A DNA stretch of 64,000 bases from Magallana gigas (taxonomy: Eukaryota): NCBI RefSeq assembly GCF_963853765.1, contig NC_088855.1, positions 59,210,001 through 59,274,000 of the forward strand, written 5' to 3'. The notes below the pieces were generated by a model that did no database searches, was not told the origin of the DNA, and worked only from the letters and a program-made list of their open reading frames with translations. Positions 14,130-20,100 of the stretch are shown piece by piece. The position numbers were made by a program, and so were the translations under genes. The stretch's first letter is position 1; every line of letters begins with the position of its first letter.

Positions 14130-17100
14130 TTAACAGAGGTGAACACCGACACCTTTACCTTTTGCACCTGGAAATTAAAAGAAATTAGGCTTTTAAATAT
14201 GGTCTTGACTGCATATATGTGTGTAACTCAAGTCTTTTAACCATACAAAAGAGTGATATATATCCTGTGCAATAGTGTTGGATGGAAAGTCCTTTGACCT
14301 ACCCAGCATGCTGCTGAGGAAGGAAGCATATGTGGCTGTTCCGGTGACCGCCCCGACCGCTGCAGGGTTACTCCTGGTTGTCTTTACATTAAAACCATTG
14401 GGTCCCCAGACCTCTACTTCTACAATGTGCCAGTCTGTCATTCTGTGGAAATCATAGGAAAAAACACTTGCTTATTAACAATCAGTCATCATCCCAAATT
14501 TCATAGTCAAGCATTTAAACTTAAATTGAATTTGTGGTTCCATAAAAATCTGGAAATTTGACAGAACTGTCATGTAACCTACTGAGGGTCTGATACAATA
14601 GATCCCGACACTTTGTCAAATCCCAGATTGTGTGCAGCAATAGCTGCTGCTGCCATCGTGTTCACATTGTTAGGAGCCAGGGGACACAACTCTCGCACAG
14701 GTCCTTCAACAAAAAAGTACATCTCTCATAAAATTAAGCTCTGATAATAATTCTTTGTACTGATGTATGTACCCTAAACTTAGAACAGATGAATGTAAGA
14801 TACAAAATGAATTAGATTTAGAGTGGTCATCTTTTTGTAAGTAATTGTTTACTTTTAATGATGTTTATTGAATTATTTACCATCATACAGAATAACTTTG
14901 GGTCAAGGTCGACACCATTATGGTCACTGAAATCTGAGCTCTCGACTTTTTGCGTGTAGTGCATCAAATATCATGAATTGAGTGTTTATAATTGTTCCAT
15001 GGACTTTTAAGTGTTTTTGGAGTGTTCTTTCGAAAACGTGAGTCAATATTAGTTAGCCTTTCTTGACTTTTTCATTCTGTGAACATTGTATGTCTGTAAA
15101 GATTGACATCTACTCACGATCAGTATCAACATGCCGGAACACAAAAACGAAAACAGGTTTAGATTTGTAAGTCCAGCAAACCCAGCCAAAAAAAAGAAAC
15201 CGAACGACTCCTTAGGATCTGTATCTGATGCAGACAGTGACATTTCTGTCCTCAGCAACATATTAGAGAATGCGTCAAGCAGTGAAGAAAGCTTGCGCAG
15301 GGTCACCAGTGTTATACTTGGAAATACACTTATCAAAAACGCTCTGGCGATGGAGCTTGTTCCTGAAATTGACCGAATGAGAGCTGAAATAAAAGACCTG
15401 CATCGCCAAATTGACGATCTATCTCAGTATTCCAGAAAAAATTGTCTAAAATTTTCTGGCATTGCAGAAAGCCCACACAACTCAAAAGGAGACCCAGAAA
15501 ACACAGACCAATTGATCCTCAACCTATGTAATAAAGTAATCCTGAAGTCCACTGGCACCACCCTCAACCCATGGACCATCAGTAACTCACATCGCCTTGG
15601 GCCAAAGCCACGCTCCCGCAACGACCCACCGAGAGACATCATCGTAAAGTTCGTGCGGTACCGTGACCGTGCCCTCGTGTATGGCAATAAAAAAAATCTC
15701 AAGAACTACAACAACAACCCCTCTAGTGGATATAAGGTTTTCGTCAATGAGGCACTGACCAAGACTCGCGCCAAGATGTTCTCGCGTCTGCGTAAGTGCA
15801 AAAGAGATGGTCTAATTGACTCGTGTTGGACATATGAGGGAAATATTTTCGTCAAAAAAACGCAAGGTAGTCCCAAATCATTGATCCGAAGTGATGATGA
15901 CGTGCTGTCTATTGAACTTCGTGGTGAACAGCGTACACAGATCCTGGAAACTTCGGAAGTGTAACCACTATTCCTTGTCAGCTGATTATCAGCTGTTTAA
16001 ATCCTAATGTCAAGGCCATTCTCAAACTCTTTCGTTTCACATTGTATAGGTAAACGATACGATGTCATTTCCATTACACGCAAACATTCCTACATGCTTC
16101 TATCATTGCTATTTTGTCATGTATATATGTTCATTTTTCTTTGTTTAATTTTTTCTCCCAATTTTTCCATTCCGGAATTTGTTGCTCTTTGTTGGTACCG
16201 GTTCCTATATTTTCTGTCTTATGTATACATCCGACTACTACTTGTGTCCATGGCCATGCTGAATAATATGTTCATCATTGTTTTTGATACTTTTGATTGA
16301 AAAAAACTTAATTTATTCTAGGCCATGGACATTTATTATTACAAGGTATGTTCAGCTTTTCTTGATATGTTCTAAATACGACGCAAGCTACGGCGTTATT
16401 GTAGAATTATTATTAATTCTTGGAGGTGTTGAAAAAAACCCTGGGCCTAGCTCAGATTTGCCCAATGTTAAACTTAGTTCTATTCGTATTGCACACAACA
16501 ATGTATGTAGTTTATATCCAAAAGTGGACATTGTTACTGCTGAAATGTCTAATTTTGATGTTATATGTATAAGTGAAACACATCTTGATAACTCTATTTA
16601 TAGTGACTCAATTGTAATTGATGGTTTTCACCCTCCTCTTAGGAAAGACAGAAATAGACGAGGAGGAGGTGTTGCAATATACATTTCAAGTTATTTATCT
16701 TTTATTGAACGAACTGATTTATCAACCCCTGGTTTAGAAATTCTATGGGCTGAAATTAATGTTAATTGTAAAAAAATTCTTGTTGGTGTTTTGTACCGAC
16801 CACCAAGTGCCCTGGCAGATTATTGGAACCTTTTTTGTTCAAATCTTGAAAAAGTAGCACAATGTGAATTACCAGTGTTTTTATTAGGAGATTTCAATGT
16901 CAATGTCTTGAGTGATCAAGGTTCTAATTTTCGACAAATGGTGCAAAGACTTGGTCTTGATAATTTAATTCATAATGTCACAAATTTTACAGTTAGTACT
17001 GGTACCTGTATTGACCTTATCCTTACCAACAACTCTAGTCTAGTTATAGATTCATTTATTCTTCCACCATTTTGCAGTACTCATTCGACAATAGGCACCG

Positions 17101-20100
17101 AGATCAAATTTCAATCATTCAAGCAATATGCATACAAGCGCACAGTGAGGGATTATAAATATGCTAATTACAATGCAATTAATGAAGACATTAGACAAGT
17201 TAATTGGGAGGAAGATGTCTTCCAAGGGGAAAACATTGATGACATATACAAATCTTTTTTAGATAAAACCAATGAATGCATTAATAAGCACATACCATCA
17301 AAAATTATTACAGTTCGTCCTAGAGATAAAGCATTTATGAATAATACAATTCGCAAATTAATGAGGAAAAGAAATCGTATGCATCACAAAGCTGTTAAAA
17401 CTCAAAATCCTGTTCACTGGGGAAATTATAGATACCTAAGAAATAGAGTCATAGATGAAATTAGGCGTTCTAGAGATAATTACAATAAAAAACTTACAGC
17501 ACAGATTGATAAAACAATACCCCCTGGCAAATGGTGGAGGATTATTAAATCTTTGACTAAACTAAATAATAGCCATAAACCACTACCCCCTCTTAAAGCA
17601 GCTGGTCAAACTCTGTTTCATCCAGTTGACAAAGCTAATGCATTTAACAAGTATTTTGCTGAAATCTCATCCTTGCCTGTAGAGCCTCAGCTCCCTGACC
17701 CTCCGTTACATGGACCTGGGCCACCGAACCATATGAACAATCTTATAATCTCTGACCAAGAGGTATTGGATCAAATTCATATTTTAAATGTAAACAAACC
17801 CTCGGGTCCAGATGGTATATCACCCCTTATCATAAAAAATATATCTTTATCTATTGTTAAACCCCTTACAAAACTATTTAACCTTTCCCTATGCTTGGGT
17901 AAACTCCCTAGCATGTGGAAAATTTCCCATATAACACCGGTATACAAAAATAAGGGTTGTGCGCAAGAAGTTAATAATTACAGACCCATATCTATTACTT
18001 CAATACTGTGCAAGATCCTTGAAAAAATTATCTTTAAACATATTCACAACTATCTCTTTGAAAATAAAATTATTTACAAATACCAGTCTGGGTTTCAACC
18101 TGGAGATTCTACAACTTACCAATTAGTTGAAATTTATAATACTATCATATCCAGTCTTGATAAAGGTAAAGATGTGAGATTTGTTTTTTGCGATATCAGT
18201 AAAGCCTTTGACAGGGTATGGCACAAAGGTGTATTATATAAATTAAAACTATATGGCATTTGCAATCAAATTACTAACTGGGTTGAGAACTATTTAGTAG
18301 AAAGGAAGCAAAAAGTCTTTTTGGATGGTTTTTCCTCATCACTCAGACATACTACCTCAGGTGTTCCCCAAGGATCTGTTCTTGGTCCATTTTTATTTTT
18401 ATTATATATTAATGACATGTCTTATGATATATCAAACAATCTTCGTCTTTTTGCTGATGACACTTCTATATATGTTATTGTTGACAATGACACACATGCT
18501 GTAACAAATTCACTTGTTTCTGATCTTGACAAAATATGTAAATGGTCTGACATATGGGCAGTTGATTTTAATCCCAGTAAAACCAAAAACCTTGATTTCA
18601 GTAGAAAAAATATATCTCATCCCCCTGTGCAGTTTGGTGTCCATGGTCCATTTATACAAAAAGTTGATAGTCACATCCATCTTGGAGTAAATCTCCAATA
18701 TGATGGAGGTTGGAAACAACATATTAATTCTATTCATGAAAAAGCTTGTATAAGGTTAAACCTATTGAAACTTGTTAAATATAAGCTATGTAGATGCTCT
18801 CTAAAAAAAATATATTTTTCATTTATAAGACCAGTTTTAGAATATGCTGATATAGTTTGGGATAATTGTTATGATAGAGAAGTTAAACTTCTAGAAGATA
18901 TCCAAGTAACTGCTGCAAGGATTATATCAGGTCTTAGAAGTAACTCATCCAGGTCAGCTCTATATGATGAATTGGGTATTGATCTACTATCAGATAGAAG
19001 GAAGGTTCATAAACTCACATTATTTTATAAAATGGTCCATGGTCTTGCTCCCAAATATCTACAGGATTTACTTATGCCATGTACACCGCAAAATAATTAC
19101 TCACTAAGACACCAAGATGATTTTAAATTTGTTATACCCCAGATAAAAACAACTGCCTTTATGAACAGCTTTCTACCTTCATCTATAAAATTATGGAATG
19201 AATTACCTCTTCACATTAGAATTTTACCAACTGAGTCTTCATTCAAAACAGCCATAAAAAACATATTCTTTAGAAAGCCAAACAAACTTTATGACTTTGG
19301 AAACAGAAAAGCAAATATTATACATTGTCAGATAAGAAATAATGCAAGCAATTTAAATGCTGACCTATTCAATCATTTTTTGTGTGAAAATTCTATTTGT
19401 GATATGTGTGGTTATGTATCTGAAAATGCTTATCATTATTTTTTTGTCTGTCCACATTATGATGCACAGAGGCAAGTTTTTATACAGTCAATAAGTAATT
19501 TACACTTAGATATCCCCATCTCTCTGGACTTATTATTATATGGGGACAGTAGTTTGCCTTATAACGAAAATGTTGCTATATTTAAGATTGTACATGATTA
19601 TATATTAGCTACCAAAAGGTTTAAGTTTTAATGCATTATTCACAGTGTCACTCAAACAGCTGAATTGCTAGCTTTCTACAACTATTTTTCATATTGTACA
19701 TAAATAATACCCGGTACCAAGCATTTTGATTCCACTTATTTTTTTTTATTTATTTTTTTTTTTCCTTTATTTTTCTCTACTATTGTTACATTGTACCATC
19801 AATGTTTGTCAAATTGACTGTTAAAGGAGAGGGCTCAAATAGGCAGATTGCCTGCTGCCCAATCCTATTATGTGATATTTTTTTACATAATAAAATATTG
19901 TTTAAACAACTTTTAATGATGTTTATTGAATTATTTACCATCATACAGAATAACTTTGGTGTCCTTGACTTGGTCGTTTTTGGTCTTCAGGTCCCCGTTC
20001 AGCTTGAAGCTGGTCGGATGCTTGGTCATTGTGACCTTTAGGTTCTGTAATAAACAATATCTGTTCTTATTGTAATTCATGCAGCCTGTCTCCATTTTCT

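What the first reader, a model, noticed from the sequence alone, without database searches (positions are those of the whole stretch)
14851..19959. Intact LINE with a 51-bp target-site duplication that copies an ASPDH exon end and donor, leaving the gene intact
Seen: identical 51-bp repeats (14851-14901, 19909-19959) flank a full-length element with two open ORFs. On the minus strand the repeat is the last 21 nt of ASPDH exon 5 plus donor GTAAAT and 24 more intron nt. One target cut therefore fell inside the exon, yet the duplication preserved exon 5 and left a second perfect donor 5 kb downstream. Established: non-LTR TSDs are usually about 20 bp or less, and CR1/L2 elements often show short or no TSDs. 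Inference: a very recent insertion with unusually staggered cleavage, probably polymorphic; it may create a cryptic 46-nt exon (weak acceptor near 14927) and antisense read-through over ASPDH exons 1-5.
Basis: partly seen in the sequence, partly recalled or inferred. Interest (0 to 1): 0.7.

Follow-up and report, generated by a model that had tools for sequence, protein, structure and literature searches.

The report
LINE scar duplicates a splice donor
A full-length jumping gene sits in an intron of a mollusc ASPDH-like gene between two identical 51-base copies of its landing site, about four times its family's usual length, which likely came from a rare but known kind of distant second DNA cut and left a spare splice signal whose use is untested.

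Summary
An exact 51-bp repeat flanks a 5,007-bp two-ORF LINE lying antisense in intron 5 of an ASPDH-like gene. A public DNA run holds the empty site with one 51-mer, so the repeat is a true target-site duplication (TSD) and the insertion is absent from at least one other chromosome. It is an outlier: 31 of 40 sister copies have 8-20 bp TSDs (median 13) and none is longer.

The "rescue" reading is overstated. The priming nick lies 30 nt inside the intron, so exon 5 and its donor would survive with any TSD length; the long TSD only adds a second donor. Every cryptic exon tested through that donor carries a stop. No laid run showed the filled allele, so splicing and the junctions themselves are untested by reads.

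Long TSDs (>20 bp) are a described minority class of LINE insertion, and this scan noted similar cases on other DNA. One lead is left: the insert's first 20 nt pair (17 bp, -13.7 kcal/mol, nominal p about 0.001, seen post hoc) with the target across the second cut, more strongly than in any of 40 sisters.

The parts
14851..14901 (.). Left copy of the 51-bp target-site duplication
   Evidence: Exact repeat; single copy in the empty allele (run X4)
19909..19959 (.). Right copy of the duplication; holds the last 21 nt of exon 5, its donor and 30 intron nt in all
14902..19908 (+). Full-length APE-type non-LTR retrotransposon (CR1-like), 5,007 bp
   Evidence: Both ends match the family's ends in sister copies
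15131..15964 (+). ORF1, 277 aa, likely an L1-type (type II) nucleic-acid-binding protein
   Evidence: Weak Pfam Baculo_FP_2nd, below cut-off; Atlas look-alikes at 0.91-0.92, and Transposase_22 cluster at 0.89, a lead only
16263..19631 (+). ORF2, 1,122 open codons: endonuclease, reverse transcriptase, C-terminal Cys/His motif; first ATG at codon 95
   Evidence: the Cys/His motif is read from the sequence
16422..16448 (+). 2A-like motif (GGVEKNPGP) ahead of the endonuclease; G in place of the canonical D
   Evidence: canonical motif and position from PMC3708506
19889..19908 (+). Element poly(A) signal and short A-rich 3' tail
19939..20044 (-). ASPDH-like exon 5; native donor begins at 19938
   Evidence: Gene model
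14875..14901 (-). Duplicated exon end (14901-14881) and second donor (begins 14880), 177 nt from the exon 6 acceptor
14881..14926 (-). Candidate 46-nt cryptic exon; weak acceptor, contains a stop; use untested
19950..19969 (+). Target stretch across the second cut that can pair with the insert's first 20 nt (17 bp, two 3-nt bulges)
14130..21906 (-). ASPDH-like host gene, eight coding exons (21906-21870, 21171-21039, 20886-20802, 20623-20480, 20044-19939, 14703-14583, 14442-14303, 14167-14130); the only Asp_DH_C match in the genome
   Evidence: exon 7-8 joint in 16 RNA reads and an exon 3-4 loose end in 5 reads

Best explanation
A full-length CR1-like LINE sits antisense in intron 5 of an ASPDH-like gene between two identical 51-bp copies of its target, and it likely inserted by ordinary target-primed reverse transcription whose second-strand break fell about 51 bp from the first nick instead of the family's usual 8-20 bp. 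Shown: the repeat, the single-copy empty site, the family TSD lengths, the gene structure. Inferred from TPRT geometry: the first nick was on the gene's sense strand 30 nt into intron 5, and the second break was on the other strand 21 nt inside exon 5. Fill-in of the staggered ends then copied the exon end and donor. The distant break was most likely a chance, host-repair-dependent event of the described long-TSD class. Exon 5 and its donor survive by geometry. The predicted cost to the gene is a 5.2-kb intron with a competing donor and nine antisense AATAAA hexamers; any use of the second donor tested here would truncate the protein.
For: Exact 51-bp repeat flush with both element ends. Run X4 contig of 1,722 nt runs 14557-14850 then 19909-21315, skipping 5,058 nt with 51 letters fitting either side. 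Sisters: 31 of 40 have exact 8-20 bp TSDs (median 13); 9 of 40 have 7 bp or less, near the finder's chance level (mean 5, max 9 in 300 mismatched pairs); none exceeds 20. The TSD starts with A, as in 27 of the 31 sisters with TSDs. Young copy: 14 substitutions and 4 small indels against L031. Long TSDs are described: 1 of 25 ZfL2-2 insertions in wild-type DT40 cells (1,228 bp; PMC2666801, passages); L1 TSDs over 100 bp in up to 10% of HeLa events and in most events in NER-deficient cells (PMC5223499, passages).
Against: No laid run lists a filled junction (0 of 5 DNA-type runs, 0 of 2 RNA runs; tables are cut and contigs drop rare variants), so the filled allele rests on the assembly. Only 1 of 5 DNA-type runs bridges the empty site. 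The pairing of the insert's 5' end with the target at the second cut (nominal p 0.0007-0.0012) is not explained by a purely chance break. The X2 contig starts exactly at 19909, which is unexplained. The sisters examined are the best-scoring of about 300 candidates, not all copies.
Confidence: 0.72

Rival explanations
1. Pairing-guided second cut. The element's 5' end (as RNA pairing with the + strand, or as cDNA 3' end invading and displacing the + strand) found a chance complementary stretch at 19950-19969, and the second break was made there. This would set the TSD at 51 bp.
For: 17-bp duplex, -13.7 kcal/mol, spanning the cut. Nominal p 0.0007 (first 20 nt, +/-20 nt window) and 0.0012 (25 nt, +/-30 nt) against random windows on either strand; it ranks first among the 41 copies in both settings, and only 2 and 1 of 40 sisters reach p<0.05. 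An alignment score gave p 0.001-0.003.
Against: Seen by eye first and tested afterwards; one event. A plain longest-exact-match test gives only p about 0.026. The junction shows no inverted or templated bases, which twin priming or extension in a D-loop would be expected to leave. Sisters do not need such pairing.
Confidence: 0.13
2. The AT-rich target melted from the first nick until the GC-richer exon, and the second break fell at that boundary.
For: The 51-mer is 24% GC and the next 15 nt are 47% GC.
Against: 8 of 31 sisters have equally AT-rich targets (25% GC or less over 51 nt) and ordinary 9-16 bp TSDs; 16% of window 51-mers are this AT-rich.
Confidence: 0.06
3. The element patched a pre-existing staggered break (endonuclease-independent), its RNA bridging the ends.
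For: An 8-nt match between the element's 3' end and the target at the first nick, not reached on that strand by any of 31 sisters.
Against: In the fair test that match has p 0.02-0.05. Both element ends are complete and no target base is lost, unlike endonuclease-independent events as I recall them (own knowledge).
Confidence: 0.05
4. The repeat is an assembly artefact or a duplication older than the insertion.
For: No read set laid here lists the filled junctions.
Against: The empty allele has one copy. The repeat is flush with both family ends, and the two copies are identical.
Confidence: 0.04

Closest known systems
Long target-site duplications (L-TSD, >20 bp) of LINE insertions: ZfL2-2 in DT40 cells (PMC2666801, passages seen), L1 and ZfL2-1 (PMC4245944, abstract, passages and section 8 seen), L1 in NER-deficient cells (PMC5223499, passages seen)
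   Same: TSD over 20 bp as a minority outcome beside a short family-typical length; explained there by a distant second-strand break, with host repair factors involved.
   Different: A natural, polymorphic insertion in a mollusc rather than an engineered insertion in cultured cells; 51 bp is at the short end of the class; it duplicates a splice donor.
CR1-clade elements of molluscs with a 2A-like peptide at the start of ORF2 (CR1-1_CGi, CR1-1_LG; PMC3708506, passages seen)
   Same: APE plus RT ORF2 with a 2A-like motif about 55-62 codons into the open frame.
   Different: The motif has G for the canonical D; the element keeps an ORF1, which most 2A-bearing elements in that paper lack; no in-frame ATG precedes the motif. 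Identity with CR1-1_CGi was not tested.
Earlier notes of this scan on other genomes (e1-10284384, e1-9573580, e1-8649284, e1-8660320; unchecked AI notes)
   Same: LINE TSDs, some long, that duplicate a splice site, with no use of the extra site shown.
   Different: Those are other genomes, three named as vertebrates; some predict in-frame exons, whereas here every tested exon has a stop. The lines shown for them mention neither an empty allele nor a family TSD distribution, both of which were obtained here.

Membership tests
APE-type non-LTR retrotransposon (LINE) | ORF2 with AP-endonuclease domain followed by RT | tested here: met
   Pfam Exo_endo_phos E 2e-12 and RVT_1 E 3e-31
APE-type non-LTR retrotransposon (LINE) | Dispersed copies with a shared 3' end, 5' truncation and TSDs; no LTRs | tested here: met
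   42 matches to the 3' part against 10 to the 5' part; common 3' end; TSDs in 31 of 40 sisters
CR1 clade (strict) | RT groups with CR1 reference elements in a phylogeny | not tested
   No named reference RTs were obtained; the Atlas gave unnamed RT-endonuclease clusters only
CR1 clade (strict) | ORF1 of a type found in CR1 (type II, PHD or esterase) | tested here: inconclusive
   Only weak L1-type hints; no useful PDB hit. PMC4120745 (passages) says no ORF1 type is diagnostic for CR1 versus L2
CR1 clade (strict) | Short simple-repeat 3' tail rather than long poly(A) | tested here: met
   Tails are a few TAAA/CAA-like bases in most sisters; that this marks the CR1 group is partly recalled, and PMC13343379 (passages) says poly(A) is unique to Zenon in the group
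Long TSD (L-TSD) insertion | Direct repeat over 20 bp flush with both element ends | tested here: met
   51 bp; class definition in PMC4245944 and PMC2666801
Long TSD (L-TSD) insertion | Pre-insertion site holds one copy | tested here: met
   Run X4 contig; 1 of 5 DNA-type runs
Long TSD (L-TSD) insertion | Filled junctions seen in reads | tested here: inconclusive
   Not listed in any of 7 runs laid; carriers unknown
Active 2A ribosome-skipping peptide | GD(V/I)ExNPGP motif | tested here: not met
   [10 protein letters not shown] replaced by G; motif from PMC3708506
Active 2A ribosome-skipping peptide | Skipping in a reporter assay | not testable with these tools
   Needs a translation assay

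The most novel reading that the evidence does not exclude
[quoted passage not shown] Here a 17-bp inverted match across the cut would have moved it from about 13 to 51 bp, giving a sequence-level cause for some long TSDs and a handle on the open question of how the second cut is placed.
Probability: 0.12. Interest if true: 0.65.

Novelty: new member of a known kind. Interest (0 to 1): 0.3.

Why it matters
As it stands it is a well-documented natural case of a long TSD, with the empty allele and the family's normal TSD range in hand, in a single-copy gene. It gives a testable allele: a duplicated donor that rebuilds the native short intron and competes with the true donor across 5 kb. If the pairing at the second cut is causal, it would bear on how non-LTR elements place their second-strand break, which the papers read here describe as unresolved.

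Tried and rejected
1. 'Rescue by the long TSD': rejected on geometry.
2. Acceptors further into the element were not scored.
3. RNA test: X21 and X24, about 1 in 100 of each run read, 146 and 156 reads laid; only the exon 7-8 joint was listed, and carriers are unknown, so this says nothing on the filled allele.
5. Hidden long or diverged TSDs: BLAST of 5' against 3' flanks in 6 copies without a short TSD found none at the junctions; four others (L063, L067, L075, L079) were not checked this way.
6. Rows dropped before the count of 40: L020 and L021 (same flanks as L018), L038 (5' part inverted; best exact match 6 bp), L050 (3' end missing), L039, L040, L042 (no 3' end in the stretch), and repeat fetches of the same places.
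7. 3'-end likeness to the target: p 0.0015 in the first test, 0.02-0.05 in the fair one; downgraded.
8. Ribozyme or known RNA in the element: no Rfam hit near threshold.
9. PDB searches with ORF1 and exon 6 gave nothing useful.
10. Paper searches for pairing-guided long TSDs or TSD-duplicated donors (listings only) showed no such report; the library is partial. Supplements of PMC4245944 and PMC2666801, which list insert junctions, were not read and bear on the novel case. PMC11203168 (passages) added nothing.
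Full report
Observation. The longest exact repeat between the two flanks is 51 bp, 14851-14901 and 19909-19959; the next is 10 bp. Between them is a 5,007-bp element with ORF1 (277 aa) and a 1,122-codon open ORF2 carrying Pfam endonuclease and RT domains. On the minus strand eight exons with GT-AG introns give an open 267-aa protein. 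Exon 6 matches Asp_DH_C strongly and exon 7 weakly, and this is the only Asp_DH_C match in the genome. The repeat is the last 21 nt of exon 5 plus 30 intron nt. RNA reads support the exon 7-8 joint (16 reads) and the exon 3-4 boundary (5 loose ends), but no exon 5-6 joint was listed, so that boundary rests on frame continuity. The genome (564 Mb, 29 contigs) and the run labels point to an oyster-like mollusc; this is inference.

The family. A 3' probe gave 42 matches from 40 scored of 331 candidates, and a 5' probe 10 matches. Copies share one 3' end with a short A-rich tail and most are 5'-truncated. The nearest full-length sister, L031, differs by 14 substitutions and 4 small indels and has a stop in ORF2; of the four long copies compared, only the window copy has both frames open. 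At four positions (15869, 16974, 19619, 19693) the DNA runs that list them show only the other letter, so this copy or its lineage has a few changes of its own: young, not necessarily brand new. ORF2 lacks an in-frame ATG until codon 95, as in L031, so activity is not shown. The clade is CR1-like by tail, domain order and a 2A-like motif in the position described for mollusc CR1 elements (PMC3708506, passages), but no RT tree was made.

Is it a TSD, and is it unusual? Run X4 has a 1,722-nt contig that runs 14557-14850 and then 19909-21315, with the 51 letters fitting either side. This is 1 of 5 DNA-type runs laid; X8 is weakly consistent, and X1, X2 and X5 are uninformative. No run listed a filled junction (tables cut, contigs drop rare variants). 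Among 40 sisters, 31 have exact TSDs of 8-20 bp (median 13), 9 have 7 bp or less, and none exceeds 20; mismatched flank pairs give a mean of 5 and a maximum of 9. The sister lengths include any bases shared with element ends. Dropped rows are listed under Tried and rejected. So 51 bp is the only value over 20 among 41 copies.

How it likely formed. By TPRT geometry (established knowledge; model restated in PMC2666801, passages) the first nick is at the element's 3' side: on the gene's sense strand, 30 nt into intron 5. The second break lies on the other strand, 21 nt inside exon 5. Long TSDs are a named minority class (PMC4245944, section 8): 1 of 25 ZfL2-2 inserts in wild-type DT40 cells, and L1 TSDs over 100 bp in up to 10% of HeLa events and most events in NER-deficient cells (PMC5223499, passages). 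A chance distant break is the simplest reading. AT-richness alone is not enough, since 8 of 31 sisters have equally AT-rich targets and normal TSDs.

The lead. The insert's first 20 nt can pair with the + strand of the target at 19950-19969, across the second cut: 17 bp with two 3-nt bulges, -13.7 kcal/mol. Against random windows on either strand p is 0.0007 and 0.0012 in two settings; the window copy ranks first of 41 both times, and 2 and 1 of 40 sisters reach p<0.05, as chance would give. Against it: I saw it by eye before testing, it is one event, a plain exact-match test gives p about 0.026, and the junction shows no inverted or templated bases. An 8-nt match of the element's 3' end to the target at the first nick fell to p 0.02-0.05 in a fair test. 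Three paper searches (listings only) showed no report of such pairing in long TSDs; the library is partial and supplements were not read.

Effect on the gene. The gene-upstream side keeps everything up to the first nick, so exon 5 and its donor would be intact with a 13-bp TSD too; the long TSD rescued nothing. What it adds is a second identical donor at 14880, which with the exon 6 acceptor rebuilds the native 177-nt intron, while the true donor must now span 5,235 nt. If only the second donor is used, exon 5 runs on and stops after two codons. Nine AATAAA hexamers lie on the gene's strand inside the element, two within 190 nt of the donor. All of this is prediction: the RNA runs were shallow here and their carriers unknown. 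The element has its own AATAAA at 19889; reads of another copy do run past the 3' end, so antisense read-through is possible but not shown at this locus.

Verdict. A real, young, polymorphic LINE insertion with a long TSD: a new member of a known kind. The scan has noted similar cases on other DNA (unchecked notes, not used as support). Interest is modest, raised a little by the testable pairing lead.

Noticed in passing
window 16263-16545: ORF2 has no in-frame ATG before codon 95, also in the nearest full-length sister L031, and none ahead of the 2A-like motif in L034 or L037; translation would need a non-AUG start or reinitiation.
   Followed up: partly
L038:2443-4259 (G000:C6): A family copy whose 5' 1.2 kb is inverted head-to-head against its 3' 630 bp; runs X2 and X8 hold the same strand-switch joint. 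PMC4245944 reports 5' inversions mostly for L1 in human cells.
   Followed up: partly
L018, L020, L021: One insertion with shared flanks at three genomic places, so a larger segment carrying it was copied afterwards.
   Followed up: partly
L031, L032, L038, L039 5' junctions: Four copies show AAG just before the window copy's first base (three show CAAG), so the family's 5' end is likely a few bases longer than this copy's.
   Followed up: partly
L032:2799 to L033:2207: A full-length sister is split by an insertion of about 9 kb upstream of ORF2.
   Followed up: no
window 19907 (RNA runs X21, X24): 3 and 25 reads run from the element's 3' end into one same foreign flank, and 4 reads enter the 5' end from another flank: copies elsewhere are transcribed across their ends.
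   Followed up: no
window 19909 (run X2): A 1,408-nt contig begins exactly at the first base of the 51-mer; a carrier or a variant at the adjacent base could cause this. X2 lacks the window copy's letters at 15869, 16974, 19619 and 19693, weakly against a carrier.
   Followed up: partly
window 21286-21554: Two pieces of a very high-copy repeat, tRNA-SINE-like by eye, in ASPDH intron 1 (depth in the thousands).
   Followed up: no
window 22654-23244: 276-bp inverted repeat, 99% complementary, 39 nt apart, just upstream of ASPDH exon 1.
   Followed up: no
window 33982-37732: Two 166-bp tandem arrays in opposite orientation inside 174-bp inverted arms.
   Followed up: no
window about 8200-13550, + strand: A multi-exon gene for a charged, coiled-coil-like protein, read by eye, ends tail-to-tail with the ASPDH-like gene.
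   Followed up: no
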